Translations under genes and position numbers: made by a program
The notes under the pieces: generated by a model
What the model saw: only the letters and a program-made list of their open reading frames with translations
Told to the model about the DNA's origin: nothing
Database searches by the model: none
Shown here: in pieces, positions 3,201-19,496 of the stretch
Layout of the letters: each line of letters starts with the position of its first letter
Numbering within the stretch: position 1 is the stretch's first letter
Origin: a bacterium
GTDB taxonomy: Bacteria; Patescibacteriota; Minisyncoccia; UBA6257; UBA9933
Assembly: GCA_030693235.1 (NCBI GenBank)
Contig: JAUYBE010000006.1
Span: forward strand, 139,601 to 203,600
Direction: 5' to 3'
DNA: 64,000 nt

Positions 3201-3202
3201 AT

Positions 3203-3275: not shown

Positions 3276-3277
3276 AA

Positions 3278-5428
3278 TTGCGTCAATATCCCTTAGAAAA
3301 ATATAGAAATATAGGAATAATAGCCCATATCGATGCCGGCAAAACAACCGTTTCCGAACGGGTTCTTTTTTATACCGGTGTTTCTCATAAAATCGGCGAG
3401 GTCCATGAGGGAGAGGCGATTATGGATTGGATGGAACAGGAAAAAGAAAGGGGAATCACCATCACCGCGGCGGCCACTACTTGTTTTTGGATGCCGACGT
3501 ATCGTCGGCCGCAGAATTACGCGGACTTGACGCGGACCGACGCGGAAGAAATCAAAAAAAAATATGAACATAGGATTAACATTATTGATACGCCCGGCCA
3601 TATCGATTTCACGGTTGAAGTTCAACGTTCATTAAGGGTGCTTGACGCTGCGGTTGTTATTTTTGACGGCGTGGCCGGCGTTGAACCGCAGTCCGAAACC
3701 GTCTGGCATCAGGCGGATAAATTTAAAGTGCCGCGAATTTGTTTTATCAATAAATTGGACCGGATAGGCGCTAATTTTGAGAAATCGTTTCTTTCAATCC
3801 AGGAAAGATTGAATCCCAACGCGATTGTCGTTCAAATACCGATAGGTCTGGAAGCAAATTTTGAAGGCATTATTGATTTGCTGGCAATGAAGGCTTTTTA
3901 TTTTGAAGGCGATCGCGGCGAAAAAATTATTGAAAAAGAAATACCAAACGAGTTAAAAGTTCAAAGTGAAAAGTTAAAAGTTCTATTAATTGAAAAAATC
4001 TCTGAAACCGACGAAAAATTGACGCAAAAATATCTTGAAGGAAAAGAAATCAGTTTTGAAGAACTTAAACAGGCGATGAGAAAAGCCACAATCAACAGTC
4101 AATTGGTTCCGGTTTTTTGCGGTTCGGCGTTGAAAAACAAAGGCGTTCAGTTGATGCTCGACGCCGTTTTGGATTATTTGCCTTCGCCGCTTGATTTGAA
4201 AGAAATCAAGCCGATTGAAGGAGCGCATCCGAAAACCGAAGAAAAAATTAATCGTCAACCGGCGGATAATGAACCGCTGGCGGCTTTGGCTTTTAAAATC
4301 GCCACAGACCCTTATGTCGGCAGCCTCACCTTCGTCAGAGTTTACAGCGGCGTTCTTAAGAGGGGATCTTACGTTCTGAATTCATCAAAGGGCAATCAGG
4401 AAAGAATCGGCCGGATTGTCCGAATGCACGCCAATCAACGGGAAGAAGTCGAGGAAATGTATGCCGGCGATTTGGGCGCGGCCGTAGGATTGAAAGGAAC
4501 TTCCACGGGCGATACTTTGTGCGATCCGGGCAATCCGATTGTTTTGGAAAAGATTATTTTCCCGGAGCCGGTGATTTCCGTCAGAATCGAGCCGAAAACG
4601 AAAGCCGATCAGGAAAAATTGGGTTTTGCCCTTCATAGATTATCAGAAGAAGATCCGACTTTCCGCATTAGCGGCGACCCCGATACCGGCGAGACGATTA
4701 TTTCCGGTATGGGCGAACTTCATTTGGAAATTATTATTGACCGGGCGAAAAGGGAATTTGGAGTTGAAGCGGATATCGGCAGGCCTCAGGTCGCTTATAA
4801 AGAAACTGTCAACGCCGAGTCCGAAGCTGAGGGTAGATATATCAAGCAATCCGGCGGTCGAGGTCAGTACGGCCATGTTTGGTTAAACGTTAAGTCATTG
4901 GAAAGGGGGAAAGGATTCGTCTTTGTCAATAAAATAAAAGGCGGTATTATTCCCCAGGAATTTATTCCGGCGGTTGAAAAAGGCGTTAAAGAAGCGTTAA
5001 GTAAGGGAATTTTAGCCGGTTATCCGATTGTTGATATTGAGGTGAAACTTTATGACGGTTCTTTTCATGAAGTTGACTCGTCGGAAATCGCTTTTAAAAT
5101 CGCCGGCGCGATGGCTTTTTTGGAAGCGGCAAAAAGAGCCAAGCCGGTGATTTTGGAACCGGTGATGAAAATTCAGGTAATCGCGCCTTTGGAATTTTTA
5201 GGCGACGTTACCGGCGATCTCAATGCCAAGCGCGGAAGGATTGAAAATATTTCAGATAGGGTTAATATTAAAGTGATAGATGTTAAAGTGTCCCTGGCTG
5301 AAATGTTCGGTTACGCGACCAAGTTGCGGTCAATGACTCAGGGCAGAGGAACCTTTACGATGGAATTCGACCATTATGAAGAAGTGCCATCAAATATTGC
5401 CCAGTTGATTATTGAAGGGAAGAAATGA
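3278..5428 (+). CDS. fusA: elongation factor G (TTG start)
   Basis: [17 protein letters not shown]-domain; 716 aa translational GTPase. Confidence 0.95.
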
Positions 5429-5436
5429 TAATAATT

Positions 5437-5508
5437 ATGTGTCATTGCGAACGAAGTGAAGCAATCTATATGTGAGATTGCCGCGGGCTTCGCCCTCGCA
5501 ATGACAGT
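5437..5508. repeat. family C palindrome GTCATTGCGA...TCGCAATGAC
   Basis: Arms gtcattgcgaacgaagtgaagcaatct / agattgccgcgggcttcgccctcgcaatgac. Lies between fusA and rplM. Confidence 0.7.
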
Positions 5509-5514
5509 TATTCA

Positions 5515-5856
5515 ATGCAATACACCATCGATGCCACAAATAAAAAATTGGGAAGATTGGCTTCTGAAATAGCCGTAATTTTGCAAGGCAAAAAAAGTCC
5601 GAAATACGAACCGCGACTGGAAGGCGAGGATAAAGTGTTTATCAAAAATATCAATAATCTGGAAGTTAGCGGCAAGAAAATGAAACAAAAAATTTATTAT
5701 CGCCATACGACTCAGGTCGGCCACTTAAAAGAACAAACTTTGGAGATGCTTTGGCAAAAAAAGGGTCCGGCGGAAGTTTTGCGCCGAGCTGTGCTTCATA
5801 TGTTGCCGAAGAATAGATTAAAAATTAAGAGGATAAAAAGGCTAATAATAGAATGA
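5515..5856 (+). CDS. rplM: 50S ribosomal protein L13
   Basis: IDATNKKLGRLASEIA...YYRHT...LP pattern of uL13. Confidence 0.8.
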   Translation: MQYTIDATNKKLGRLASEIAVILQGKKSPKYEPRLEGEDKVFIKNINNLEVSGKKMKQKIYYRHTTQVGHLKEQTLEMLWQKKGPAEVLRRAVLHMLPKNRLKIKRIKRLIIE

Positions 5857-6284
5857 CTAAACCAATTGAAAAAATCGAAAAAATGTCTGAAAAAAAAGAG
5901 CGTTATTTTGAAGCGGTTGGCAGGCGAAAAACAGCCGTGGCGCGAGTAAGGCTTTTTACAAAAAAAATCGGCATTGAGATTAACGATAAAAATCTCAGCG
6001 ATTATTTTCCGATTCTGCGTCTTCGAAAAACAGTTGAGGCTCCTTTGGAAAAAATGAAAATTGCCGATAAATTGGGAGCGGTTGTTAAAGTTAAGGGCGG
6101 CGGGATTATGGCCCAAGCCGAGGCTATTCAGCTTGGCATTGCTCGGGCTTTGATTAAATTCAATGCTGAATTTAGAAAACGGCTTCGTCGCGTTGATATG
6201 CTCACTCGCGATTCGCGAATGGTTGAGCGAAAAAAATATGGTTTGAAAAAAGCAAGGCGGGCGCCGCAGTGGAAGAAGAGATAA
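5853..6284 (+). CDS. rpsI: 30S ribosomal protein S9
   Basis: GRRKTAVARV... and a C-terminal KKYGLKKARRAPQWKKR. Confidence 0.9.
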   Translation: MTKPIEKIEKMSEKKERYFEAVGRRKTAVARVRLFTKKIGIEINDKNLSDYFPILRLRKTVEAPLEKMKIADKLGAVVKVKGGGIMAQAEAIQLGIARALIKFNAEFRKRLRRVDMLTRDSRMVERKKYGLKKARRAPQWKKR

Positions 6285-6295
6285 CAATAAAATTA

Positions 6296-6360
6296 ACCTA
6301 ATTATTCTAATTTCTAATTTCTAAATTAGGTCAATTAGAAATTAGGTCAATTAGAAATTT
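6296..6360. repeat. themed palindrome (TCTAATT)n / (AATTAGAAATTAGG)n
   Basis: Direct reading of inverted tandem motifs downstream of rpsI. Confidence 0.6.
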
Positions 6361-6367
6361 AAAGGCG

Positions 6368-6910
6368 ATGCTTTCTCTAAAATTTATAATAGGTCTTTTA
6401 ATCCTAATTCTTTCCTTCCATATATTAACTACTATCAATCATTGGTATTGGACTTATCCCTGGCTTGATATACCAATGCATTTTCTTGGCGGTTTTTGGG
6501 TGGCGATGGTGTTCTTGTATTTTTGGCGCTCTGCCCATATTTCTATCGGCGCCGGGCGTTTGTCGACTCCAGCGGTCGACACCGCCCTACGCTCTCGGTT
6601 TGCCGACTCCAACTTTGTCGGAGACCAAGCTCGGCGAACCTCCGAGAGTTGCCGTACGAAACACGGGAAGATCGCTAATTCGTTTATTTTGTTGATTTTA
6701 GTGTTGAGTTTTGTGGCTCTAATCGGCGTTTTCTGGGAATTTTATGAATTTCTTTACGATGTTTTAATTTCCAGCCGCGGTTATTCGGGGTTTGCGCGAT
6801 TGGGCGCCGCCGACATGATAGGAGATTTATTTTTTGACCTTTTAGGCGGCTTGACGTTTTTGATAATTTGCCGCATAATGAATTTAAATAATAATAAAAC
6901 AATACAATAA
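6368..6910 (+). CDS. hypothetical membrane protein with an internal GC-rich segment
   Basis: Multiple hydrophobic helices. No family recognised. Confidence 0.4.
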   Translation: MLSLKFIIGLLILILSFHILTTINHWYWTYPWLDIPMHFLGGFWVAMVFLYFWRSAHISIGAGRLSTPAVDTALRSRFADSNFVGDQARRTSESCRTKHGKIANSFILLILVLSFVALIGVFWEFYEFLYDVLISSRGYSGFARLGAADMIGDLFFDLLGGLTFLIICRIMNLNNNKTIQ

Positions 6911-6915
6911 ACAAT

Positions 6916-8154
6916 ATGAAACAATCTAAACTTTTTATCAAAACCAAACGCGAGGCGCCGAAAGACGAAGAGGCGATTAACGCTAGATTACTGATACGGG
7001 CGGGTTTTATCGATAAATTAATGGCGGGAGTTTACACTTTTTTGCCGTTAGGATTAAGAACGCTTAAAAAAATTGAAAATATTATTCGCGAAGAAATGAA
7101 CAAAGCCGGCGGACAGGAAGTTTTAATGCCCGGTCTTCAGCCGAAAGAAAATTGGGTAAAAACCGGAAGATGGGATTCTATGGATGATCTTTATAAAATT
7201 AAGGACGCAAGCGGAAGAGAGTTTGCTTTGGGTCCGACGCACGAAGAAGTGGTTTTCCCCTTACTTAAAAATGTCATTTTTTCTTATAAAGACCTGCCTC
7301 TTTATGTTTATCAAATTCAAAATAAATTCAGGATGGAATTAAGGGCAAAATCCGGCCTTTTGCGCGGAAGAGAATTTTTAATGAAAGATTTTTATTCTTT
7401 CCATACCGACGAAAAAGACAGAGATGATTATTATGATTTTATGGCGAAAGTTTATAAAAATATTTTTGACATACTAGGTATAGGAGATAAAACACACTAT
7501 ACGCTTGCCTCCGGCGGAACATTTTCCAAATATTCCCATGAATTTCAAACTGTCACCGATGCGGGCGAAGATACAATACATATTTGCTGTAAATGCGAAA
7601 TGGCCATAAATGACGATATTATAAAAGAAAATAAATCCTGTCCAAAATGCGGCGAATCAAGTTTTAGCCCAAAAAAGGCCATAGAAGTTGGGAATATTTT
7701 TAAATTAAAAGAAAAATTCGCCGATGATTTCGGATTGAAATTTAAAGATAAAGATGGAATGGAGAAAACGGTTATAACCGGCTGTTATGGAATCGGTCTT
7801 GGTCGGTTGATGGGAGCCGTTGTAGAGTCAAGCTATGATGAAAAAGGAATGATTTGGCCGGAATCAATCGCGCCGTTTCAAGTTCATTTAATCAGACTAA
7901 CGACAAACGACAAACGACAAACGATTTTTGCGGATAAAATTTATAATGCTTTACAAAAATCCGGCGTTGAAGTATTATACGACGACCGCGAAGATATTGG
8001 CGCCGGCGAGAAATTCGCCGATGCGGATTTAATCGGAATTCCATGGCGGGCCGTTGTCAGTGAAAGAACAGGAAATAAGATTGAGATTAAAAAAAGAAAT
8101 GAGAAGAAAACAAGACTGGTGAGCGAGAAAGAATTTATTAAGACACTAAAATGA
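6916..8154 (+). CDS. proS: prolyl-tRNA synthetase (short form without editing domain; Cys4 insertion)
   Basis: REAPKDEEAINARLLIRAGFI...GVYTFLPLGLR class II motifs. CCKCE...CPKCG insertion. Confidence 0.85.
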   Translation: MKQSKLFIKTKREAPKDEEAINARLLIRAGFIDKLMAGVYTFLPLGLRTLKKIENIIREEMNKAGGQEVLMPGLQPKENWVKTGRWDSMDDLYKIKDASGREFALGPTHEEVVFPLLKNVIFSYKDLPLYVYQIQNKFRMELRAKSGLLRGREFLMKDFYSFHTDEKDRDDYYDFMAKVYKNIFDILGIGDKTHYTLASGGTFSKYSHEFQTVTDAGEDTIHICCKCEMAINDDIIKENKSCPKCGESSFSPKKAIEVGNIFKLKEKFADDFGLKFKDKDGMEKTVITGCYGIGLGRLMGAVVESSYDEKGMIWPESIAPFQVHLIRLTTNDKRQTIFADKIYNALQKSGVEVLYDDREDIGAGEKFADADLIGIPWRAVVSERTGNKIEIKKRNEKKTRLVSEKEFIKTLK

Positions 8155-9191
8155 TTTTCGATTATTTCAAAAAAGACATCGGCATAGATTTGGGAACCGC
8201 CAATTCTTTGGTTTATGTCAAAGATCGGGGAATTGTTGTCAGCGAGCCTTCGGTGGTGGCGGTGAACAATAAAACCGGCCAGGTATTGGCGATAGGCGAA
8301 GAAGCCAAGAAAATGATCGGCAGGACGCCGGCGCATATTTCGGTAATTCGGCCGTTGGTAAACGGAGTTGTTTCCGATTTTGAAATTACCCAGGAAATTC
8401 TCCGTCATTTTTTGAAAAAAATAAATAATAATCGGATTTTTAATTATTGTCGGGTAGTTATCGGCGTTCCCACCAATCTTACCGAAGTGGAAAGAAAATC
8501 CGTGGAAGACGCGGCAATTTCCGCCGGCGCCGCCAAGGTTTATCTTATTGAAGAGCCGATTGCGGCGATTTTGGGCGCCCGTTTGCCGATTAATGAGCCG
8601 ATTTCCAGTATGATTGTGGATATCGGAGGCGGCACTGTTGATATCGCCGTTATTTCCATGGGCGGAATCGTGACGGCCAGAAGTTTGAAAATCGCCGGCG
8701 ATAAATTAAACGACGATATCATTAAATTCGTTCGCGATGAATTTAAATTGATAATCGGCGAGCCGACGGCCGAAGAACTGAAAATCACCATTGGTTCGGC
8801 GGTTCCCATCGAAGAAAAAATGGAATTGGCGGTTCGCGGTCGGGATATAGCTACCGGATTGCCCCGAGAAATTATCGTTAAGGGAAATCATGTTCGAACG
8901 GCGATAAATCGTTCTTTGGGGTCAATGATAAGCGCGATAAAAGAAATAATTGAAAAAACCCCGCCGGAATTGGTTGGTGATATTTTAAAAACAGGCATTT
9001 ATCTTTGCGGCGGCGGAAGTTTGCTGAAAGGAATCGATCAGTTGATTGAAAAAGAAATTTCAGTTAAAGCTTCGATGATTGAGGACCCTTTGACTTGCGT
9101 TGCCAGGGGAACGGGGATTGCGTCGGAAAATATTCAATATTATTCAAAATATTTTGTTGACAATTTAAAACCGATGGAGATAAATATATAA
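8151..9191 (+). CDS. mreB: rod shape-determining protein MreB
   Basis: IGIDLGTANSLVYV... actin-like ATPase motifs; 346 aa. Confidence 0.85.
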   Translation: MIFDYFKKDIGIDLGTANSLVYVKDRGIVVSEPSVVAVNNKTGQVLAIGEEAKKMIGRTPAHISVIRPLVNGVVSDFEITQEILRHFLKKINNNRIFNYCRVVIGVPTNLTEVERKSVEDAAISAGAAKVYLIEEPIAAILGARLPINEPISSMIVDIGGGTVDIAVISMGGIVTARSLKIAGDKLNDDIIKFVRDEFKLIIGEPTAEELKITIGSAVPIEEKMELAVRGRDIATGLPREIIVKGNHVRTAINRSLGSMISAIKEIIEKTPPELVGDILKTGIYLCGGGSLLKGIDQLIEKEISVKASMIEDPLTCVARGTGIASENIQYYSKYFVDNLKPMEINI

Positions 9192-9192
9192 C

Positions 9193-9387
9193 ATGGGTGG
9201 AGTACCGGTAAAACATCATACTAAATCAAAAGTTGGAAGGCGGCGGTCTCATCTTGCTTTGAAGCCGGCCCGGATTTTTGTTTGTCAGAATTGCAGTCAT
9301 CCGATTTTACCGCATCGACTTTGCGGCAATTGCGGAAATTATAAAGGGAAAATAATAAAAAAACCGAAATTGAAAATTAAGAAATAA
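9193..9387 (+). CDS. rpmF: 50S ribosomal protein L32
   Basis: VPVKHHTKSKVGRRRSHLALK... C..C...C..C bL32 pattern. Confidence 0.8.
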   Translation: MGGVPVKHHTKSKVGRRRSHLALKPARIFVCQNCSHPILPHRLCGNCGNYKGKIIKKPKLKIKK

Positions 9388-9394
9388 CATAGCC

Positions 9395-9474
9395 TGTCAT
9401 TTAGCTCGTTCCATAGTTTTACAATAAATTTCGCGGCAATTGCGGAACATATGAGGGGAAATAAAAAATAATGG
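9395..9474. repeat. intergenic segmental duplication: a copy of the nusB 5' end followed by a copy of the rpmF 3' end
   Basis: catttagctcgttccatagttttacaat occurs at 9398 and 9480. gcggcaattgcggaa...gggaaa(a)taa..aaa occurs at 9322 and 9433. Confidence 0.75.
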
Positions 9475-9887
9475 CAACCAGACATTTAGCTCGTTCCATA
9501 GTTTTACAATCGTTGTATGAATGGGATTTTTATAATCGCCAGGTTGATTTAACAAAAATAATTGAACGCAATTTAAAAGAATTCGGTCAGGGGATAGACG
9601 AACCGGAATTTGTTTGGCGGATTGTCAAAGGGGTAATTGAAAATTTTGAAAATTTAAATAAAATTATTGAGAAAGCGGCGCCGGAATGGCCGATTAACCA
9701 AATTTCCATCACCGACCGAAATATTTTACGGATTGGATTATATGAGTTATTATTTGCCGATCATAATGAAGTGCCGCCTAAGGTGGCGATTAACGAAGCG
9801 ATTGAATTGGCCAAAAACTATGGCGGTCCCAATTCAGGAAGATTTATTAATGGAGTTTTAGGAACAGTGTACAAAGAGCTTTCTTAA
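9471..9887 (+). CDS. nusB: transcription antitermination factor NusB
   Basis: 138 aa, [14 protein letters not shown]... NusB-like helical pattern. Confidence 0.7.
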
Positions 9888-10047
9888 AATTTTCAAGCCG
9901 ATAGGCGCTGAAAATTTTACTAGAAAGCCTTTACCCCTCACCTTCTCTATTGATAATTGTTTAATAATTATATAAGGTAGACGCAAGTCGGCTTCGCCTT
10001 ATAGACGTGGTAGGTGTAAATTTATTGGTGGAAAAGGTGGGGGGTGC

Positions 10048-10103
10048 TCAATGTGATAGTAAAATTTACTTCGCATTGGGCTCGTAAATTTTAATCACAT
10101 TGG
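10048..10103 (+). promoter_or_regulatory. hairpin in the rpsD leader ending 1 nt before the start codon
   Basis: Arms tcaatgtgatagtaaaatttac / gtaaattttaatcacattgg. Confidence 0.4.
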
Positions 10104-10104
10104 C

Positions 10105-10719
10105 ATGAAAAGATCTAAAGAAAAACTGGAACGTTCGTTGGGGATGAAGCTTTTTTTGAAAGCGGATCGTTGTAATTCGCCAAAATGCGCGATGGTCAGG
10201 CATCCTCAGCGTCCGGGTATGCATGGCGGAAAACGCCGGAGGGCGAAAACAGAATATGGCGATCAATTATTGGAAAAACAAAGAATAAGAGCAAGCTACG
10301 GGCTTCGGGAAAAACAACTGGCCCGCATTGTCGAAGAGTCTATGAAAAAAACGGGTTCAGTGGGCGAAGCGATTATCAGCTCTTTGGAGCGTCAGTTTTT
10401 CAATGTGATTTTTCGTCTGGGAATAGCGCCTTCACGGGTTGTTTCAAGACAATTTATCAGCCATGGTCATTTTTTGGTTAACGGTAAAAAAGTTACCATT
10501 CCTTCTTATTCGACTAAAATAGGAGACATAGTTTCCATTAAACCTTCTTCTCGCGAGCTCTTGATTTTTAAAGATTTGCCTGATAAGCTTAAAAAATACG
10601 AAACGCTGGAATGGCTTGATTTGGATAAAGAAAAACTGGAAGGCAAAGTAAAGTCCTTGCCGCGCGATATTGAAATTCCGTTTGATATAAATTTAGTGGT
10701 GGATTATTATTCTAAATGA
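10105..10719 (+). CDS. rpsD: 30S ribosomal protein S4
   Basis: SYGLREKQ...GHFLVNGKKVTIPSY... uS4 pattern. Confidence 0.9.
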   Translation: MKRSKEKLERSLGMKLFLKADRCNSPKCAMVRHPQRPGMHGGKRRRAKTEYGDQLLEKQRIRASYGLREKQLARIVEESMKKTGSVGEAIISSLERQFFNVIFRLGIAPSRVVSRQFISHGHFLVNGKKVTIPSYSTKIGDIVSIKPSSRELLIFKDLPDKLKKYETLEWLDLDKEKLEGKVKSLPRDIEIPFDINLVVDYYSK

Positions 10720-10790
10720 GTTTTTAGGTTTTAGTTTTTAGGTTTTAGATAAAAAAATCTAACACCTAACACCTAACACCTAACACCTAA
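10720..10790. repeat. family A themed palindrome abutting the rpoA start
   Basis: Same motif and orientation. Ends 4 nt before the GTG start at 10795. Confidence 0.8.
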
Positions 10791-10794
10791 AAAA

Positions 10795-11544
10795 GTGGAA
10801 TACACAAAACTTAGCGATGCCGTAAAAATTAAAAAAGTTTCTGAAACCGAACGCGAGGGCGTTTTTGAAATTGAAGGGCTTTATGCCGGTTATGGATTGA
10901 CTTTAGGCAATTCTTTGCGCCGCGTCCTTCTTTCTTCATTGCCGGGAGCCGCCATTACCCAAATAAAAATTAAAGGCGTGGAACACGAATTTTCAACAAT
11001 TCCCGGAGTATTGGAAGACGTTCTCGAGATAACCTCAAATCTTAAAAAAGTGCGCTTTCATTTTTACGCCGCCGAGCCCCAGATTTTAACTTTGAAAATC
11101 AAAGGAGAGAAAAAAGTCCTGGCCAAAGACATTAAAACAAACGCTCAAGTGGAAGTGGTTAATCCGGACGCTCATATTGCCACTCTTACAAGCAAGAATG
11201 CCGAAATTGATATGGAGATTATTGTGGAAAAGGGGCTTGGTTATGTTCCTGTGGAAGCCAGAAAAATCGAGAAATTGCCCGTTAAAACAATCGCTCTTGA
11301 CGCTATTTTTACGCCAGTGGTTAAAGTTAATTTTAACGTTGAAAATATGCGGGTTGGCGAACGCACCGACTACAACAGATTAAGACTTTTTATTGAAACC
11401 GACGGCAGTATTACGCCTTCAAGCGTTCTTCATAAATCTTGCAGTATTTTAAAAGACCACTTTGAAAAAATTTCGGCGCTCGAAATTAAAGGAATAGAAT
11501 CGAAAGCGGAACCGGCGGAGAAAAAAACGAAAAAGAAAAAGTAA
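10795..11544 (+). CDS. rpoA: DNA-directed RNA polymerase alpha subunit, N-terminal domain only (GTG start)
   Basis: alpha-NTD motifs (GYGLTLGNSLRRVLLSSLPGAAIT). Ends after 249 aa with a lysine tail. No alpha-CTD coding space remains before rplQ. Confidence 0.85.
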   Translation: MEYTKLSDAVKIKKVSETEREGVFEIEGLYAGYGLTLGNSLRRVLLSSLPGAAITQIKIKGVEHEFSTIPGVLEDVLEITSNLKKVRFHFYAAEPQILTLKIKGEKKVLAKDIKTNAQVEVVNPDAHIATLTSKNAEIDMEIIVEKGLGYVPVEARKIEKLPVKTIALDAIFTPVVKVNFNVENMRVGERTDYNRLRLFIETDGSITPSSVLHKSCSILKDHFEKISALEIKGIESKAEPAEKKTKKKK

Positions 11545-11642
11545 TTAGACGCGATGCGAAACAACAAATACATTCGAATGCCGCGAAAAATTAATTCGTA
11601 GCATTCGCATCTATTCGTAGTTTAGCATCGGGTAGCGAAGCG

Positions 11643-11993
11643 ATGAGACATTTAGTAAAAGGCCGAAAATTTCACAGAGGGAAAGGGCAACGAAACGCTC
11701 TTTTTAAAAGTTTAATCAATAATTTTATTTTAAAAGAAAAGATAGAAACAACCGAAGCCAAAGCTAAAGAAATTCGGCCTAAAATGGAAAAATTAATAAC
11801 TGCCGGAAAAAAGCGGAATTTAAGCGTTTTAAGGATATTGACAGAACAACTTCCCAAGAAAGCCGCTTTGAAAATCTATTACGAATTAAGTCCCCGCTAT
11901 CAAGAACGAAAAGGCGGTTATACCAGAATAACCAAAAGCGCTAAAACCAGAAAGAACGATGGAGCGAAGATGGCGGTGATAGAGTTTGTGTGA
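11643..11993 (+). CDS. rplQ: 50S ribosomal protein L17
   Basis: MRHLVKGRKFHRGKGQRNALFKSL... bL17 N-terminus. Confidence 0.85.
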   Translation: MRHLVKGRKFHRGKGQRNALFKSLINNFILKEKIETTEAKAKEIRPKMEKLITAGKKRNLSVLRILTEQLPKKAALKIYYELSPRYQERKGGYTRITKSAKTRKNDGAKMAVIEFV

Positions 11994-11997
11994 GGGG

Positions 11998-12040
11998 TTG
12001 ACAATTTTGTTGTTGACAATTAATATTAGATAATATAAAT
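11998..12040 (+). promoter_or_regulatory. candidate sigma70-type promoter(s) upstream of tuf
   Basis: TTGACA at 11998 with a 17-nt spacer and TAATAT. Second TTGACA at 12013 with TATAAA. Confidence 0.4.
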
Positions 12041-12063
12041 TTAAAAAGTCGCAATAATTAAAT

Positions 12064-12153
12064 TCATACGAAAATACGAAAACATACGAAATTACGAAAA
12101 CTAACTTTCGTACATTCGTACAATTTCGCACTTTCGTAAGAAAATTTCGTATG
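12064..12153. repeat. family B themed palindrome (TACGAAA)n / (TTTCGTA)n whose 3' arm includes the tuf ATG
   Basis: catacgaaaatacgaaaacatacgaaattacgaaaa ... tttcgtacattcgtacaatttcgcactttcgtaagaaaatttcgtATG. Confidence 0.8.
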
Positions 12154-13350
12154 GCAGAAAAAGCAAAATTTGAAAGAGTTAAGCCGCACATTAATGTTGG
12201 AACTATCGGTCATGTCGATCACGGCAAAACAACTTTAACCGCGGCCATCACTCATGTTCTTAAATTAAAAGGTCTTATCGCGAAAGAGGAGTCGGTTGAT
12301 CAAATCGATAACGCGCCGGAAGAGAAAGCCCGGGGCATTACTATCGCTTTGCATCACTCGGAATATGAATCCGAGAAACGGCATTACGCTCATATCGACG
12401 CTCCGGGACACGCCGATTACATTAAAAATATGATTACCGGCGCGGCTCAAATGGATGGCGCGGTTTTGGTAGTGGCGGCGACTGACGGTCCTATGCCTCA
12501 AACGCGCGAACACATTCTTTTGGCCCGTCAGGTTGGCGTGCCGTCTCTCGTTGTTTTTTTAAACAAAGTTGATATGGTTGATGACCCGGAATTGGTTAGC
12601 TTGGTGGAAGCCGAGGTAAGGGAACTTTTGAAGAAATATAATTTCCCGGGAGATGAAACTCCGATTATAAAAGGATCGGCTCTTAAGGCGCTGGAGGCGC
12701 AATCAGTCGATGACGAAGCGATTAAACCGATTTTGGAATTAATAAAAGCATTGGACGAATACATTCCCGAACCGACGCGAGAAATTGATAAGCCGTTTTT
12801 GATGCCGGTTGAAGATATTTTCTCGATTGAGGGTCGGGGAACCGTGGTAACCGGTCGGATTGAAAGGGGAATGGTTAAAATTAACGAGGAAATAGAAATT
12901 ATCGGTTTGAAACCCACTCAAAAAACGGTTGTAACGGGCATTGAAATGTTTAATAAGCTTCTTGACGAAGGCCGGGCCGGCGACAATGTCGGCATTTTAC
13001 TCCGCGGTCTTAAAAAGGAAGATGTTGAACGGGGTCAGGTTTTGGCGAAGCCGGGGAGCGTGACTCCTCACACAGAATTCGAAGCGGAAGTTTACGTACT
13101 TTCAAAAGAGGAAGGCGGCAGGCATACGCCATTCTTCAAAGGATATAAACCGCAACTTTATATTCGAACCACCGACGTTACCGGAGAAGTGATTTTACCG
13201 GAAGGCATTGAAATGGTAATGCCGGGCGATACAATTAATCTAAAAGTTAATTTAATCGCGCCGGTGGCTTTGGAAGAAAAACAGCGTTTTGCCATTCGTG
13301 AAGGAGGCAAGACTGTCGGCGCCGGAGCGGTAACGAAGATATTGAAGTAG
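12151..13350 (+). CDS. tuf: elongation factor Tu
   Basis: [20 protein letters not shown]-domain; 399 aa. Confidence 0.95.
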
Positions 13351-13359
13351 TCCCTTGTC

Positions 13360-13698
13360 ATGACAAAGAAAAAAGAAAAGGAAATTGAACATCAAACAAA
13401 GTTGCGTTTAAGAATAAAATCTTACGATCATAAATTGATTGATAGTTCTTCGCGGCAGATTATTGATATTGCGGTAAGACAGAACGCCGAAGTGATCGGA
13501 CCGGTTCTGTTACCGACGGATTTCAAGCGTTATACGGTTAATCGCTCAACTTTCGTCCATAAAGATTCAAGGGAACAGTTTGAATTGCGGGTTCATAAAC
13601 GCTTGATTGATATTTTAAATCCAAACCCAAAAATTATTGAAGCTTTGTCCAATCTCAATCTGCCGGCAGGCATTGACATTGAAATTAAAATGATATAA
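13360..13698 (+). CDS. rpsJ: 30S ribosomal protein S10
   Basis: [16 protein letters not shown]...IGPVLLPT uS10 pattern. Confidence 0.85.
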
Positions 13699-13790
13699 AA
13701 TTTTGCTTGGTGAGTGATGAGTTTTCCTTATCTTCAACTCTCCGATCTTGGTCGGAGAAGCGAAGAAATCTAAGGAAAGCCCTTCTAATT

Positions 13791-13822
13791 TTCCCCTCCG
13801 ACCTTGCGTCGGAGGGGTTTTT
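13791..13822 (+). terminator. intrinsic terminator (CCCCTCCGAC...GTCGGAGGGG + T-run) downstream of rpsJ
   Basis: 10-bp GC-rich stem followed by TTTTTTT. Confidence 0.6.
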
Positions 13823-13929
13823 TGATTTTAGCAACTCATACGCGATCGCGCAAAAAGTTGATAATACAATCTATTGGCATATACACTTGTAAATTTTCGC
13901 GCATTCTTTCATAATTAAATTGGCCGTTG

Positions 13930-14110
13930 ATTGGAGGCGTTTCAGCGGGCGGTAAAGAAGCGCACTCACTAAATAAAAAAAATTGGAGGTCACCATTTGC
14001 CGCTCGCTGAAACGCCTGCCCCGATTGACATAAATTTTATTATTTGTTATTCTTAACTCACTAAAAAGATTTAGCTTAAAAAATGAGGGGCTAAATCCCT
14101 CATTTTTATA
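13930..14110 (+). ncRNA. candidate structured RNA / leader between rpsJ and rplC, closed by a terminator-like hairpin
   Basis: Long-range inverted repeat ggaggcgtttcagcgggcgg / ccgctcgctgaaacgcctgcc. Terminator-like hairpin atgaggg..ccctcat plus T-rich tail at 14082-14108. Confidence 0.2.
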
Positions 14111-14129
14111 TTTTTATTAAAATAAAATT

Positions 14130-14759
14130 ATGGCATTCATTTTAGGCAAAAAATTAAAAATGTCGCAGATTTGGAAAGATGATGAAGTGATTCCGGTAAC
14201 GTTGATTCAAGCGGGACCGATAACGATAACGCAAATCAGGACAAAGGAAAAAGACGGTTATGAAGCGGTTCAGGTTGGATTCGGAACGAAAAAATTAAAG
14301 AACATCAAAAAACCGCAGCAAGGCCAATTTAAAAATTTGGGCAATTTTCAGCATGTCCGCGAATTTCGGATTAAACAATTACCAATTACCAGTTACCAGT
14401 TACCAAAAGTAGGCGATGTTTTGGATGTCAGTCAATTTGAAGACGGTGGCAAAGTAAAAATCAGCGGCTTAAATAAAGGTAAGGGATTTCAAGGAGTCGT
14501 TAAGCGCCACGGTTTTCATGGCGGACCGAAAACTCACGGCCAAAAAAATCGCCATCGAGCGCCCGGTTCAATTGGCGCCACGGCGCCGCAACGGGTAATG
14601 CCCGGGAAAAAAATGGCCGGTCGAATGGGACAGGAACGAATAACGGTTAAAAATTTAAAAATTGCCGGCGTGGATAAAGAAAACAATATTTTGATGATTA
14701 AAGGCGCGGTGCCGGGAATGAGGGGAACACTGTTGGAAATTAATCAGTATGACAGTTAA
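14130..14759 (+). CDS. rplC: 50S ribosomal protein L3
   Basis: GKGFQGVVKRHGFHGGPKTHGQKNRHRAPGSIG uL3 signature. Confidence 0.9.
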   Translation: MAFILGKKLKMSQIWKDDEVIPVTLIQAGPITITQIRTKEKDGYEAVQVGFGTKKLKNIKKPQQGQFKNLGNFQHVREFRIKQLPITSYQLPKVGDVLDVSQFEDGGKVKISGLNKGKGFQGVVKRHGFHGGPKTHGQKNRHRAPGSIGATAPQRVMPGKKMAGRMGQERITVKNLKIAGVDKENNILMIKGAVPGMRGTLLEINQYDS

Positions 14760-15375
14760 TTTATATAATCAAAAAAATGAAAAAGCAGGTGCGATAGATT
14801 TGCCAGATAGGATATTCGCGGTAAAATGGAATCCCGATTTGGTTCATCAGGCTTTGATGACTCAATTGGGAAATCGTCGCCAGCCGTTAGCTCACGCTAA
14901 GGGCAGAGGCGAGGTGTCCGGCGGCGGCAAAAAGCCTTGGAAACAAAAGGGCACCGGCCGAGCGAGGCACGGTTCTATTCGTTCGCCCATTTGGAAAGGC
15001 GGAGGCGTTACGCATGGTCCAAACAAAGAAAGGGTTTTCACCAAAAAAATAAATAAAAAAATGAACAGGTTGGCTATTTTTAGCGTTCTTTCCAGAAAAT
15101 TTAAGGACGGCGAGGTAAAAATAATTGAACAATTTGACAGAGACGCCCAAAAAACCGGAAAGTGGAAAGAAATTTTAAAAAATATCAGCGATTTAAGATC
15201 GCGAACGCTTCTTGTTTCCGCTTCCATTAACGGAAGCGTTCATCGAGCGGTTAGAAATATTGAAAAAGTTGACGCCATCGGTTCATTTTCTTTAAATGTT
15301 TACGACTTATTGAAAGCGAAAAATATTATTTTGGAAAAAGAATCAATAAAGGAAATGGAAAAACACTATAAATAA
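14749..15375 (+). CDS. rplD: 50S ribosomal protein L4
   Basis: Position after L3 and a KGRGEVSGGGKKPWKQKGTGRAR uL4 motif. Confidence 0.85.
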   Translation: MTVNLYNQKNEKAGAIDLPDRIFAVKWNPDLVHQALMTQLGNRRQPLAHAKGRGEVSGGGKKPWKQKGTGRARHGSIRSPIWKGGGVTHGPNKERVFTKKINKKMNRLAIFSVLSRKFKDGEVKIIEQFDRDAQKTGKWKEILKNISDLRSRTLLVSASINGSVHRAVRNIEKVDAIGSFSLNVYDLLKAKNIILEKESIKEMEKHYK

Positions 15376-15376
15376 T

Positions 15377-15664
15377 ATGAATACCAAACCATCATCATTG
15401 ATAAAGCAAGCGTGGATTACCGAAAAAGCCGGGGATTTATCGGGTTTTAACAAGTATATTTTTATCGTCGATAAAAAAGCCAATAAGTCGGAAACCAAAA
15501 AAGCGATTGAATCAATTTATGGAGTAAAAGTGAACGATGTCAATATTATAAATACCAAAGGCAAATCAAAAAGATTGGGCCGCAGTTTGGGAAAAACGTC
15601 GACTTATAAAAAAGCGATTGTAACATTGAAAGAAGGCCATAAAATTGATATTATGCCCGCGTAA
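15377..15664 (+). CDS. rplW: 50S ribosomal protein L23
   Basis: 95 aa; ITEKA...FIVDKKANKSETKKAIE pattern; operon position. Confidence 0.85.
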   Translation: MNTKPSSLIKQAWITEKAGDLSGFNKYIFIVDKKANKSETKKAIESIYGVKVNDVNIINTKGKSKRLGRSLGKTSTYKKAIVTLKEGHKIDIMPA

Positions 15665-15670
15665 AAATTT

Positions 15671-16492
15671 ATGAAAACTTATAAACCGACAACTCCATCA
15701 AGAAGGCAGATGACCACCGTTGATTACGGCGTTTTAAGCGCGGTTGAGCCGTTCAAGAGTTTAACTAAAAAACTGCAAAAACATTCGGGCAGAAACAACC
15801 AAGGCAGAATTACCATGAGGCATCAGGGCGGCGGCAATAAAAAACTTTACAGAATTATTGATTTCAAGCAAGATAAACTGGATGTTCCGGCAAAAATTGA
15901 AACGCTGGAATATGACCCTTATCGAACGGCTTTCATCGCCCTTTTGCTTTACCGCGACGGAGAGCGGCGCTATATTTTATGTTCAAAAAACATTAAAGTC
16001 GGCGATGAAATTATTGCTTCGGAAAACGCGGCTCTTAAAGAAGGGAACAGGTTGTTGTTGAAAAATATTCCGGTCGGTTATTTGGTTTACAATGTGGAAT
16101 TGAGCAAAGGCAAGGGCGGACAGTTGGCGAGAAGCGCTGGTTCTTACGCTGAAGTTTTGGCTCAAGAAAACGGTTTTACCAATTTAAAACTTTCTTCGGG
16201 AGAAATCCGGAAAATTCATTGGAATAATTTTGCTTCATTGGGACAGGTTTCAAATCCCGACCATAATTTGGTTACGATCGGCAAAGCCGGCCGTTCACGG
16301 CATTTGGGTATTCGACCGACGGTTCGGGGTTCGGCGATGAATCCTTGCGATCATCCTTACGGAGGCGGCGAGGGAAGAACGCAGCGCGGTACTCGGAAGC
16401 CGAAAACAAAATGGGGTAAAATTACGGGAGGCAGAAAAACGCGGAAGAAAAAGAAATTAAGCGGTAAATATATTATTAAGAAAAGGAAATAA
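15671..16492 (+). CDS. rplB: 50S ribosomal protein L2
   Basis: [16 protein letters not shown]...[13 protein letters not shown] uL2 signatures. Confidence 0.95.
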
Positions 16493-16494
16493 TT

Positions 16495-16794
16495 ATGAGC
16501 AGAAGTTCTAAAAAGGGTCCGTATGTTGATCCAAAATTATTAAAGAAAATAGCTAATCTGAAGCCGGGCGATAAGTCCGCTATTAAAACTTGGTCGCGTG
16601 ATTCGGAAATTTCACCGGAAATGGTCGGTTTTGTTTTTGCGGTTCATAATGGAAAAGATTTTATTACAGTGAGAATTGTCGAAGAAATGATTGGTCATCG
16701 GCTTGGAGAATTCTCGCCGACCAGAAAATTTACCAGGCACGGCGGTAAGATGCAGAAAGAATTGGAAAAGAAAACAACAGAAACAAAAAAATGA
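16495..16794 (+). CDS. rpsS: 30S ribosomal protein S19
   Basis: [12 protein letters not shown]...HNGKDFITV uS19 pattern with a short basic tail. Confidence 0.9.
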
Positions 16795-16798
16795 TATT

Positions 16799-17314
16799 AT
16801 GAAGACTCAAACAGCCAGATTAAAATATTTACATATCGCTCCGCGGAAAGCGCGGTTGGTCGCCAGTTCCTTGAAAGGCTTATCTGTCAATGAGGCCGAG
16901 GCTCAGCTTTTAATAAGTCCGAAAAGAGCAGGCGAACCGATTATCAAGCTTCTTCGGTCAGCGGTCGCTAATGCCAAGCACAACAGCCAATTGAACGCAG
17001 ATAATCTTTTTATCAAGGAAATCAGAGTAGACCAAGGACCGATGTTGAAAAGATTTTTGCCGAGGGCTATGGGTCGGGCAACGCCGCTTCAGAAGAAGAG
17101 CAGCCACATTACTTTGGTCTTGGCTGAATCGGAAAAATTAAAAGCGCCGCGTTTTAAAATCGTAAAACCCGAAAAAATTTCAAAGAAAGAAAAAATTGAA
17201 AAAATAAAAAAAGAAACAGATATTGAAAAGCCCAAAATAACGGAAAGAGATAAAATAAAACCAATTGAAAAACCCGGTTTTATGAAAAAGATGTTTAGAA
17301 GAAAAAGCATATAA
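16799..17314 (+). CDS. rplV: 50S ribosomal protein L22 with a long Lys/Glu-rich C-terminal extension
   Basis: uL22 core (LHIAPRKARLVASSLKG...). Start is placed at the internal ATG at 16799 because the listed 16691 start overlaps rpsS. Confidence 0.8.
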   Translation: MKTQTARLKYLHIAPRKARLVASSLKGLSVNEAEAQLLISPKRAGEPIIKLLRSAVANAKHNSQLNADNLFIKEIRVDQGPMLKRFLPRAMGRATPLQKKSSHITLVLAESEKLKAPRFKIVKPEKISKKEKIEKIKKETDIEKPKITERDKIKPIEKPGFMKKMFRRKSI

Positions 17315-17320
17315 ATAATT

Positions 17321-18007
17321 ATGGGACAAAAAATTAGACCAGATTCATTTAGAACGGGAATTACCAGAGGATGGTTGGCAAATTGGTTTCCCAAAAGATT
17401 GGATTTTAAAAATTCGCTGGAAGAAGACGTTCTAATCAGGGAAATTATTAAAGAAAAAATCAATGCCGCCGGCATCGATAAAATTTTAATAGAAAAAACG
17501 GGCAATAATAATTATCGAATTTTTATAAAAGCCAGCCGTCCGGGACTGATTATCGGCCGAGGAGGAAAAGGAATTGAGGAATTGACCAAATTATTGGAAA
17601 ACAAACTGATAAAATTAAGAGAAAAAAAAGGCGTTTCAAGTCCGATATCTTTAAGTTTAAATATTGAAGAATTGAAGCGTTCGGAAATTTCAGCCAATGT
17701 TATTGCTCAAAATATCGCTTGGGATTTGGAAAAACGGTTGCCTTTTCGGCGGATTATGAAAAAAACTTTAGAGCAAATTCTTCAGAATAAAGAAGTCCAA
17801 GGAGCAAAAATCAGACTTTCGGGACGATTGGGTGGAGCTGAAATCGCCAGAGACGAACATCTGGAAAAGGGGAAGTTGCCTCTTCAGACGCTTCGGGCGA
17901 ATATCGATTACGGCGAAGTAACCGCTTTTACGACTTTTGGAACCATAGGCGTAAAGGTTTGGATATATAAGGGCTTGGTCTGGAATTATAAGGCGGAGCC
18001 GCAATAA
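17321..18007 (+). CDS. rpsC: 30S ribosomal protein S3
   Basis: MGQKIRPDSFRTGITRGW... KH domain. Confidence 0.9.
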   Translation: MGQKIRPDSFRTGITRGWLANWFPKRLDFKNSLEEDVLIREIIKEKINAAGIDKILIEKTGNNNYRIFIKASRPGLIIGRGGKGIEELTKLLENKLIKLREKKGVSSPISLSLNIEELKRSEISANVIAQNIAWDLEKRLPFRRIMKKTLEQILQNKEVQGAKIRLSGRLGGAEIARDEHLEKGKLPLQTLRANIDYGEVTAFTTFGTIGVKVWIYKGLVWNYKAEPQ

Positions 18008-18145
18008 TTACAGTAACCAAACCTTACCCCGCACATATTTTGCGAAACTAATTTTGAATTAATAAATTAAAAAACCAATGATTAAATTTAAAAATAATAT
18101 AGATAAATTTTTATCGCTCCGCTCTAAAATTTATATAAAAATCGC

Positions 18146-18556: not shown

Positions 18557-18744
18557 AAAAACAAGAATTTCAACAATTTCAAAATAAGCCATTGATCGAG
18601 CTTCAAAAAGAATTATTGGACTATCGCGAGAAATTAAGAAAATTGAAGTTTGATTTGGCGCAGGGTAAAGTTAAAAATATTAAAGAAATAAACGGGACAA
18701 AGAAAATAATAGCGCGAATAATGACAATCATTAATATAAAGTAA
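18553..18744 (+). CDS. rpmC: 50S ribosomal protein L29
   Basis: 63 aa coiled helix; [24 protein letters not shown]. Confidence 0.8.
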
Positions 18745-19049: not shown

Positions 19050-19050
19050 G

Positions 19051-19118: not shown

Positions 19119-19122
19119 TAAA

Positions 19123-19491: not shown

Positions 19492-19496
19492 ATCAC

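What the first reader, a model, noticed from the sequence alone, without database searches (positions are those of the whole stretch)
10795..11544. rpoA encodes only the alpha N-terminal domain
The ORF stops after 249 aa with a lysine-rich tail (…AEPAEKKTKKKK). Only about 100 nt separate it from rplQ, so the roughly 80-aa alpha-CTD, which binds UP elements and activators in model bacteria, is not encoded here. If genuine, this implies CTD-independent promoter recognition and regulation, or a separately encoded CTD.
Basis: partly seen in the sequence, partly recalled or inferred. Interest (0 to 1): 0.5.

Follow-up and report, generated by a model that had tools for sequence, protein, structure and literature searches.

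The report
RNA polymerase alpha without its C-terminal domain
The rpoA gene here really does encode only the assembly half of the RNA polymerase alpha subunit, ending in a short lysine-rich tail; this is a conserved trait of a whole group of ultra-small (Patescibacteria/CPR) bacteria, not an error, and it has had only a one-line mention in the papers I could search.

Summary
ORF 10795..11544 (+) encodes a 249-aa RpoA with the two N-terminal-domain Pfam families and no alpha-CTD. rplQ starts 98 nt later, and no frame of the gap can encode a CTD.

It is not an artefact. An independent assembly is 100% identical over 1144 bp. All 120 closest database homologues (233-280 aa) and all 80 species-level genomes recovered have the same short gene directly followed by rplQ. 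These include Wolfe-, Jorgensen-, Brenner-, Colwell-, Lipton- and Harrisonbacteria and Minisyncoccia.

A CTD profile finds nothing in any frame of the 64-kb window. A CTD gene elsewhere in the genome cannot be excluded: one relative carries an alpha-CTD fused to an M50 site-2 protease.

The replacement is conserved. It is a disordered tail of about 25 aa, acidic first and polybasic at the end (187/198 tails). A few tails have AT-hook-like RGRP or RGRK motifs. Polybasic clusters are strongly associated with CTD loss (21/28 versus 9/95).

Best reading: this RNA polymerase works without alpha-CTD, and the basic tail possibly acts as a minimal non-specific contact with upstream DNA (inferred).

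Loss of the CTD in Parcubacteria is stated in one sentence of a 2021 paper. I found no description of the tail.

The parts
10795..11544 (+). rpoA: a 249-aa RNA polymerase alpha subunit consisting of the N-terminal domain plus a short tail, with no alpha-CTD
   Evidence: PF01000 + PF01193; NF003519 at 285.6 bits covering positions 5-247 of 320. (E=2e-62 to PDB alpha chains). (120 homologues of 233-280 aa, none with PF03118).
10795..11487 (+). Folded alpha-NTD, residues 1-231 (dimerisation and beta/beta' assembly platform)
   Evidence: The AlphaFold2 model has pLDDT >90 over most of residues 11-228, and the last helix spans 208-228. The region aligns to E. coli alpha 14-243.
11488..11541 (+). 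Disordered C-terminal tail, residues 232-249 (KGIESKAEPAEKKTKKKK). A mixed/acidic spacer is followed by the polybasic cluster K243-K249 (nt 11521-11541).
   Evidence: pLDDT is about 50. It is the most basic C-terminal 10-mer of 76 window ORFs, tied with L32. The same architecture occurs in 187/198 relatives.
11545..11642 (+). 98-nt rpoA-rplQ spacer. It is too short for a CTD, has stops in all frames, and contains a long imperfect hairpin at 11549-11633.
   Evidence: Fold dG -33.9 kcal/mol, z -4.5.
11643..11993 (+). rplQ (ribosomal protein L17), the normal downstream neighbour of rpoA
   Evidence: PF01196, 95.6 bits. The same adjacency is seen in the related loci.
10105..10719 (+). rpsD (ribosomal protein S4), the normal upstream neighbour of rpoA
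   Evidence: PF00163 + PF01479.

Best explanation
This is the genuine, intact rpoA of a Wolfebacteria-like member of the Paceibacteria (Parcubacteria, Patescibacteria/CPR).

In this clade the alpha subunit keeps the N-terminal domain, which dimerises and scaffolds beta and beta'. It has lost the roughly 70-85-aa C-terminal domain that binds UP elements and activators in model bacteria.

The polymerase therefore most likely recognises promoters through sigma alone and cannot use alpha-CTD-dependent (class I type) activation. This fits a small genome with few regulators.

In place of linker plus CTD there is a conserved, disordered tail of about 20-30 aa. Its first half is acidic or neutral and it ends in a cluster of lysines, which in some relatives is an RGRP/RGRK AT-hook-like motif. 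I infer that this tail acts as a minimal, sequence-non-specific (or A/T-preferring) electrostatic contact with DNA upstream of the -35 element. In that role it would partly replace the non-specific upstream DNA contacts that alpha-CTD makes in E. coli.

Shown: the truncation, its conservation, the intact NTD fold, the disorder and charge pattern of the tail, and the association of polybasic clusters with CTD loss.
Inferred: sigma-only promoter recognition, and DNA binding by the tail.
For: Truncation and context.

Not an error: the independent assembly is 100% identical.

Conservation:
- The 120 best homologues are 233-280 aa with PF01000 + PF01193 only. The named ones are Wolfebacteria, Paceibacterota or Patescibacteria.
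- All 80 GTDB species-level loci (62-84% identity) have a short rpoA. Wherever rplQ was found on the same strand it follows within -4 to 227 nt.

Fold: the NTD model is confident and the tail is disordered.

No CTD in any frame of the 64-kb window.

Tail:
- Median length is 25-27 aa.
- 187/198 tails have >=4 K/R in the last 8 residues.
- Net charge is -1.6 in the first half and +5.8 in the second.
- 13/198 carry RGR[KP] or GRP.
- Basic clusters persist in G+C-richer relatives with Ala-rich tails, for example L050, L064 and L070.

Controls:
- Within the window only RpoA and ribosomal protein L32 reach 6 K/R in the last 10 residues, out of 76 ORFs.
- Among 50%-identity representatives, a cluster of >=5 K/R in 8 residues occurs in 21/28 CTD-less tails against 9/95 linkers of CTD-bearing alphas (Fisher p 3.6e-11). 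Mean net charge is +2.7 against -2.1.
- More distant CTD-less representatives end in KKRGRPKKTE, KQKRGRPKKN and PKKRGRPKKQD.

Against: No experiment or structure shows that the tail touches DNA.

Lysine is a cheap residue in a 39% G+C genome, so part of the signal may be compositional.

The Fisher test is not corrected for shared ancestry.

The window's own tail has no GRP core. The best AT-hook hit in a relative (P0155) scores 13.1 bits, below Pfam's cut-off of 17.4.

Some CTD-less relatives have acidic or very short tails: P0148, P0177, P0126, P0170, P0048 and P0090.

Absence of a CTD was tested only in 64 kb of this genome. One CTD hit in 854 kb of related loci is about what one orphan CTD gene per ~0.8-Mb genome would give, so a trans-encoded CTD is not excluded.
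Confidence: 0.6

Rival explanations
1. The CTD has simply been lost and the tail is a functionless remnant of the interdomain linker. Its lysine richness would reflect A-rich codon bias. RNAP would make no alpha-mediated upstream contacts at all.
For: The tail is about as long as the E. coli linker and ends where the CTD would begin. The tail sequence is poorly conserved and of low complexity. The genome is A+T-rich. A minority of relatives have very short or acidic tails.
Against: 187/198 tails end in a K/R cluster, with a consistent acidic-then-basic polarity. Linkers of CTD-bearing relatives are net acidic and rarely polybasic: 9/95 against 21/28. The cluster persists in Ala-rich tails of G+C-richer relatives. 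In the window such C-termini are otherwise seen on ribosomal proteins.
Confidence: 0.25
2. The CTD is supplied in trans. A separately encoded alpha-CTD domain, free-standing or fused to another protein, would lie elsewhere in the genome and do the CTD's job.
For: One relative with a CTD-less RpoA (L076) encodes an M50 site-2 protease with a C-terminal alpha-CTD: PF02163 at 91.2 bits plus PF03118 at 42.7 bits, above the cut-off of 23.8. About 16 clusters share this architecture, including Candidatus Niyogibacteria. In L082 the CTD is called as a separate 114-aa ORF. In another Paceibacterota cluster rpoA occurs split into 220-aa and 84-aa ORFs. The sampling here is too thin to exclude one such gene per genome.
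Against: There is no CTD in any frame of the 64-kb window, nor within +/-6 kb of rpoA in 79 of 80 related genomes. In L085 the fusion gene lies divergent from the small M50-rpsL-rpsG-fusA block. The window has that block (1541..5428), but upstream of it there are only tRNA-Pro and unrelated ORFs. A CTD that is membrane-anchored, or not tethered to the NTD, is unlikely to act as the canonical CTD does (inference).
Confidence: 0.1
3. The basic tail has another role unrelated to promoter DNA. Possibilities include binding nascent or ribosomal RNA, association with the nucleoid or with condensates, or contact with an acidic partner protein.
For: Acidic-basic block tails are generic interaction or condensation modules (general knowledge). 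Nothing here distinguishes DNA from RNA or protein as the partner.
Against: The tail emerges where the linker to the DNA-binding CTD normally emerges. RGRP/RGRK motifs, which recur at the very C-terminus in several lineages, are typical minor-groove DNA binders (general knowledge).
Confidence: 0.1
4. It is an artefact or a pseudogene: a frameshift in the A-rich 3' end, a misassembly, or a decaying gene.
For: The tail coding region is A-rich, with runs of 5-7 A.
Against: No downstream frame could continue into a CTD. The independent assembly is identical. 120 homologues and 80 genomes have the same architecture. The NTD is under strong conservation and scores above the curated rpoA equivalog cut-offs.
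Confidence: 0.01

Closest known systems
Canonical bacterial RNA polymerase alpha subunit (E. coli RpoA, 329 aa: NTD, flexible linker, CTD)
   Same: The NTD is homologous and complete: it aligns to E. coli residues 14-243, E 1.5e-46. The rpsD-rpoA-rplQ context is the same. It scores above the NCBIfam rpoA equivalog cut-offs.
   Different: The CTD (PF03118) is entirely missing. The protein stops after a linker-length tail that ends in seven residues, six of them lysine.
CTD-less alpha subunits already reported: 'Parcubacteria' (a one-sentence statement), the insect endosymbionts Hodgkinia and Tremblaya, and Euglena chloroplasts (PMC8321222)
   Same: The architecture is NTD-only in a reduced genome. 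Wolfebacteria belong to the Parcubacteria, so this gene falls inside that statement.
   Different: The paper gives no data for Parcubacteria. The main text of the reference it cites (PMC4508563) does not mention RNA polymerase. The conserved polybasic tail and its link to CTD loss are not described there.
E. coli alpha(1-235) truncation used in vitro (Igarashi & Ishihama 1991 and Hayward et al. 1991, as cited in PMC8321222)
   Same: The extent is nearly the same. It shows that an NTD-only alpha can assemble core enzyme and support basal, activator-independent transcription.
   Different: That is a laboratory construct in an organism that needs the CTD. Here the truncation is the natural, conserved state and carries an added basic tail.
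Archaeal Rpo3 (subunit D) and eukaryotic Rpb3/AC40
   Same: They are homologues of the alpha-NTD and have no alpha-CTD.
   Different: This protein is clearly of the bacterial type. The archaeal subunit D model NF001988 scores only 38.6 bits against a cut-off of 153.
AT-hook / HMGA-type basic DNA-binding tails (Pfam PF02178; for example the C-terminal region of Myxococcus CarD, from my own knowledge)
   Same: It is a short disordered basic segment. Some relatives end in KRGRPKK, the AT-hook core with basic flanks.
   Different: The window's tail has no G-R-P core. The best relative scores 13.1 bits, below the cut-off of 17.4. No DNA binding has been shown.
Split or redeployed alpha-CTD in other Paceibacteria: the 220-aa + 84-aa split rpoA (HRV32416.1 / HRV32417.1) and the M50 protease-alphaCTD fusions
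   Same: They are in the same phylum, and they show that the CTD can be separated from the NTD.
   Different: The window has neither an adjacent CTD ORF nor the fusion gene at the syntenic place.

Membership tests
Bacterial RNAP alpha subunit (RpoA; TIGR02027 / NF003519) | N-terminal domain: Rpb3/Rpb11-type dimerisation domain interrupted by the RpoA insert domain | tested here: met
   PF01193 at 78.6 bits and PF01000 at 115.8 bits. The AF2 model is confident over residues 11-228.
Bacterial RNAP alpha subunit (RpoA; TIGR02027 / NF003519) | Whole-protein score above the curated equivalog cut-off | tested here: met
   NF003519 scores 285.6 against 277, and TIGR02027 scores 253.8 against 227.8. 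Only profile positions 5-247 of 320 are covered.
Bacterial RNAP alpha subunit (RpoA; TIGR02027 / NF003519) | C-terminal helix-hairpin-helix domain (alpha-CTD, PF03118) | tested here: not met
   No PF03118 at E<=1. The CTD HMM against six frames of the window gives a best E of 1.4. So it is an RpoA orthologue with a non-canonical, one-domain architecture.
Bacterial RNAP alpha subunit (RpoA; TIGR02027 / NF003519) | Position in the alpha operon between rpsD and rplQ | tested here: met
   rpsD is at 10105..10719 and rplQ at 11643..11993. The order is the same in relatives.
Naturally CTD-less alpha subunits (Parcubacteria, Hodgkinia/Tremblaya, Euglena plastids) | Stop codon at the end of the NTD or linker, conserved across the lineage rather than in a single sequence | tested here: met
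   120/120 close homologues and 80/80 species-level genomes show it.
Naturally CTD-less alpha subunits (Parcubacteria, Hodgkinia/Tremblaya, Euglena plastids) | No alpha-CTD encoded anywhere in the genome | not testable with these tools
   Only 64 kb of this genome and +/-6 kb around rpoA in relatives could be read. One relative does have a CTD on another protein.
AT-hook motif (PF02178) | G-R-P core flanked by K/R, scoring above the Pfam cut-off of 17.4 bits | tested here: not met
   The window tail is KKTKKKK with no GRP. Relatives with KRGRPKK exist, but P0155 scores only 13.1 bits. The tail may work like an AT hook; it is not filed as one.
Split rpoA (separate NTD and CTD ORFs) | A PF03118 ORF adjacent to the NTD ORF | tested here: not met
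   rplQ follows after 98 nt, and there is no CTD in any frame.
Archaeal RNAP subunit D (Rpo3) | Score above the NF001988 cut-off | tested here: not met
   38.6 bits against a cut-off of 153.

The most novel reading that the evidence does not exclude
In a large clade of Paceibacteria, and apparently in several other CTD-less Patescibacteria lineages, the alpha-CTD has been replaced by a minimal surrogate. This is a disordered acidic spacer that ends in a polybasic or AT-hook-like peptide, which tethers RNA polymerase non-specifically to (A/T-rich) DNA upstream of the promoter. This would be a simpler solution to the 'third promoter contact' and has not been described. Related lineages have meanwhile redeployed the alpha-CTD fold onto a membrane site-2 protease.
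Probability: 0.35. Interest if true: 0.65.

Novelty: new member of a known kind. Interest (0 to 1): 0.42.

Why it matters
The alpha-CTD is usually treated as a universal part of bacterial RNA polymerase. A 2025 preprint calls it 'ubiquitously present across all Bacteria'. It is the target of UP elements and of most class I activators.

A very large environmental radiation that lacks it shows that sigma-only promoter recognition is a stable natural state outside organelles and insect endosymbionts. It also predicts a much simpler regulatory logic in these episymbionts.

The conserved basic tail gives a concrete hypothesis that can be tested by reconstitution: how little is needed to replace the CTD's non-specific DNA contact.

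For annotation, short rpoA genes in Patescibacteria should not be flagged as partial or frameshifted.

Tried and rejected
1. Frameshift or hidden CTD. All frames of the 98-nt gap have stops, and no CTD appears in six frames of the window. Rejected.

2. Genome-scan query. I repeated it with the single protein.

3. Orphan CTDs. A search for relatives of the L076 CTD segment returned a single hit because of the word index, so it says nothing about how common orphan CTDs are.

4. Number of independent losses. A neighbour-joining tree of 135 representative NTDs gave a Fitch minimum of 28 state changes (the first attempt timed out). The tree is crude and midpoint-rooted, and about 11 'CTD-less' representatives have out-of-frame-looking tails (P0128, P0181, P0190, P0199, P0200, P0201, P0214, P0217, P0218, P0220, P0232). 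I therefore make no claim about the number of losses beyond 'probably more than one'.

5. Literature. Seven searches found only the one-sentence statement in PMC8321222. The main text of its cited source, PMC4508563, does not mention RNA polymerase.

6. Rfam. Nothing but tRNAs was found in the window or in six related loci.

7. UP-like A/T tracts. I considered testing for them upstream of predicted promoters and did not. Predicted promoters are only about 1.7 times the shuffled expectation, and A+T-rich intergenic DNA would confound the result.

Full report
**What is in the sequence.**
The ORF 10795..11544 (+) starts with GTG and encodes 249 aa ending ...AEPAEKKTKKKK. Pfam finds the two families that make up the alpha N-terminal domain, PF01000 (115.8 bits) and PF01193 (78.6 bits). 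It finds no alpha-CTD (PF03118), even at E<=1. The NCBIfam rpoA equivalog NF003519 is matched above its cut-off (285.6 against 277), but only over profile positions 5-247 of 320.

Against solved structures the protein aligns to E. coli alpha residues 14-243 and to full-length alphas of many bacteria, always through the NTD only. An AlphaFold2 model is confident over residues 11-228, with pLDDT mostly above 90. It is unstructured from about residue 231 onward, with pLDDT near 50.

rpsD lies upstream at 10105..10719. rplQ begins at 11643, 98 nt after the stop. All three frames of that gap carry stops.

**Not an artefact.**
A Logan assembly of sequencing run SRR13727537 (L001) carries exactly this protein. 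It is 100% identical to window 10768..11911, including the stop codon and the spacer.

The 120 best matches among 5.8 billion proteins are all 233-280 aa, with PF01000 + PF01193 only. Those that have names are Candidatus Wolfebacteria, Paceibacterota or Patescibacteria.

A scan of one genome per GTDB species returned 80 loci at 62-84% identity. They come from Wolfe-, Jorgensen-, Brenner-, Colwell-, Lipton- and Harrisonbacteria, Minisyncoccia, Paceibacterota and Parcubacteria. Many other records are titled 'uncultured Candidatus Saccharibacteria', which looks like a placeholder label. In every locus rpoA stops after a short tail, and wherever rplQ was found on the same strand it follows within -4 to 227 nt. 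The window therefore comes from a Wolfebacteria-like member of the Paceibacteria, and the truncation is a trait of that clade.

**How far the trait extends.**
I searched 1.84 billion cluster representatives (50% identity) with the window protein. Of the 150 best, 100 have an alpha-CTD, judged by a jackhmmer profile seeded with the E. coli CTD.

The nearest CTD-bearing relative is P0124 (326 aa, 56% identity in the NTD), from Candidatus Giovannonibacteria. After removing fragments and about 11 sequences whose tails look like out-of-frame translation, 28 representatives are CTD-less with low-complexity charged tails. They fall at several places in a rough neighbour-joining tree. The tree is too crude to count independent losses.

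**Is the CTD encoded elsewhere?**
A 63-position CTD profile built from those 100 sequences finds nothing in the six-frame translation of the 64-kb window: best E 1.4, 5.5 bits.

In the 854 kb of related loci it finds one hit, L076 (-) 9126..10151. This is a membrane M50 site-2 protease with motifs HEYGH and LDGGH and a C-terminal alpha-CTD. Pfam gives PF02163 at 91.2 bits and PF03118 at 42.7 bits, above the cut-off of 23.8. L076's own rpoA is of the short type.

About 16 protein clusters share this architecture, one of them named Candidatus Niyogibacteria. Closely related M50 proteins of about 250 aa lack the CTD. On one short contig the CTD is called as a separate 114-aa ORF that overlaps the upstream ORF by 4 nt.

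In L083, L085 and L086 the fusion gene lies next to a small (199-207 aa) M50 gene. In L085 that small gene is followed by rpsL, rpsG and fusA. The window has the same block: small M50 at 1541..2155, then rpsL, rpsG and fusA. Upstream of it, though, there are only tRNA-Pro and unrelated ORFs. The fusion gene is therefore absent at the syntenic place.

There is an important caveat. One hit in 854 kb is roughly what one orphan CTD gene per ~0.8-Mb genome would produce. These data therefore do not exclude a CTD gene elsewhere in this genome.

**The tail.**
I compared 198 tails from the close homologues and the species-level loci.
- The median length is 25 aa.
- 187 have at least 4 K/R in the last 8 residues, and 167 have at least 5.
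- The first half has a mean net charge of -1.6 and the second half +5.8.
- K (36%) and E (20%) dominate, and aromatic residues are almost absent.
- 13 carry RGRK, RGRP or GRP, for example KKRGRKKK, KKGRPKK and KKRGRPKKSA.

G+C-richer relatives with Ala-rich tails still keep a basic cluster, for example AKKRGARAKK and KKRAARAAKKAK.

Three more distant CTD-less representatives end in KKRGRPKKTE, KQKRGRPKKN and PKKRGRPKKQD. Pfam's AT_hook model gives P0155 only 13.1 bits against a cut-off of 17.4, so I call these AT-hook-like and not AT hooks.

Two controls support a real signal.
- Among 76 non-overlapping ORFs of the window, only RpoA and ribosomal protein L32 have 6 K/R in the last ten residues. 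The next three ORFs include ribosomal proteins such as S12.
- Among the representatives, a cluster of >=5 K/R within 8 residues occurs in 21/28 CTD-less tails but in only 9/95 linkers of CTD-bearing alphas (Fisher p 3.6e-11, Mann-Whitney p 7.6e-8). Mean net charge is +2.7 against -2.1. These tests ignore shared ancestry.

**Mechanism.**
It is established that the alpha-NTD alone supports core assembly and basal transcription. The CTD is needed for UP elements and activators (summarised in PMC8321222).

From that and the conservation shown here, I infer that this polymerase recognises promoters through sigma alone. Consensus-like TTGACA-17-TAATAT sites are present, for example ahead of tuf at 11998..12026. 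I also infer that it lacks alpha-CTD-dependent activation.

The tail leaves the NTD where the linker to the CTD normally does. It is disordered and ends in a basic cluster whose presence tracks CTD loss. From this I infer that it makes a non-specific, or A/T-preferring, electrostatic contact with upstream DNA. This would be analogous to the sequence-independent upstream contacts of the E. coli alpha-CTD (my own knowledge of Ross & Gourse 2005, not checked here). This last step is a hypothesis. I give it about 0.35-0.4.

**Comparison with what is known.**
Naturally CTD-less alphas are reported for Hodgkinia, Tremblaya and Euglena plastids. [quoted passage not shown] The main text of the paper it cites for this (PMC4508563) does not mention RNA polymerase.

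No other paper in the searchable library connects the alpha-CTD with CPR names. One 2025 preprint states that the CTD is ubiquitous in Bacteria.

So the core finding is a new member of a kind that is known but barely documented. I did not find the conserved polybasic tail or its association with CTD loss described anywhere.

**Verdict.**
The gene is real, conserved and biologically meaningful, but ordinary for its lineage. Interest is moderate. It would rise if the tail were shown to replace a CTD function, or if whole-genome searches confirmed that these bacteria have no alpha-CTD at all.

Noticed in passing
L076 (-) 9126..10151; also L083 7001..8038, L085 7001..8053, L082 210..554: An M50 site-2 protease is fused to a C-terminal RNA polymerase alpha-CTD domain (PF02163 + PF03118, both above Pfam cut-offs). 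L076's own RpoA lacks the CTD. About 16 clusters share the architecture, including Candidatus Niyogibacteria, while orthologues of about 250 aa lack the CTD. The fusion gene usually sits next to a second, small M50 gene. In L082 the CTD is called as a separate 114-aa ORF. Its function is unknown, and I know of no described membrane-tethered alpha-CTD.
   Followed up: partly
Protein cluster of P0127: HRV32416.1 (220 aa) and HRV32417.1 (84 aa): In another Paceibacterota lineage rpoA is full-length (309 aa) on some contigs. On several independent contigs it is split into an NTD ORF (220 aa) and a separate CTD ORF (55-84 aa). This is either a genuine split gene or a recurrent frameshift or in-frame stop.
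   Followed up: no
window 10724..10783, 11549..11633, 12063..12142: Three long imperfect hairpins lie in the spacers rpsD-rpoA and rpoA-rplQ and in the tuf leader. Each is built from its own short repeat (UUUUAGG/CCUAACA; UACGAAA/UUUCGUA) with regularly spaced mismatches. Their dG values are -21.9, -33.9 and -24.8 kcal/mol, with z scores of -3.3, -4.5 and -4.8. No U-run follows, so they are not classical intrinsic terminators. They may be processing or attenuation sites.
   Followed up: partly
L016 4198..4440, L031 6778..6885, L061 2944..3160, L069 3579..3790, L076 6757..6985: In relatives with a long (93-227 nt) rpoA-rplQ spacer, a conserved hairpin pairs with the rplQ start codon region (...CACUGGCAUG). 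10 of 24 predicted pairs show compensatory changes among only 5 sequences, and there is no Rfam match. This is a candidate L17 translational operator or leader. It is absent from the window.
   Followed up: partly
window 1541..32361: The gene order is unusual: small M50, rpsL, rpsG, fusA, rplM, rpsI, unknown, class-II aaRS, mreB, rpmF, nusB, rpsD, rpoA, rplQ, tuf, rpsJ ... rplO, secY, adk, map, glycosyltransferase, greA. rpsD-rpoA-rplQ therefore sit upstream of tuf and rpsJ instead of after map/infA/rpmJ/rpsM/rpsK, and rpsM and rpsK are not next to rpsD. The nusB-rpsD-rpoA-rplQ-tuf order is shared with L002.
   Followed up: partly
window 11998..12041: Two overlapping consensus -35 hexamers (TTGACA at 11998 and 12013), each with a plausible -10, lie directly after rplQ and ahead of the tuf leader hairpin. 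This may be a tandem promoter for tuf and the genes downstream of it.
   Followed up: no
P0121 (569 aa), P0123 (526 aa), P0150 (664 aa): These representative proteins have two alpha-NTD-matching stretches plus a CTD. They are either tandem-duplicated or fused rpoA genes, or gene-calling run-throughs.
   Followed up: no
Record titles of L003, L005, L006, L010, L013 and others: Many TPA 'binchicken' MAGs titled 'uncultured Candidatus Saccharibacteria bacterium' carry a Wolfebacteria-like rpoA (up to 80% identity) and Paceibacteria-type synteny. The organism label looks like a placeholder and should not be read as evidence that Saccharibacteria lack the CTD.
   Followed up: no
window 19..576 (+) and 6368..6910 (+): Two ORFs of 185 and 180 aa have no Pfam match. 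The second sits between rpsI and a class-II aminoacyl-tRNA synthetase gene.
   Followed up: no
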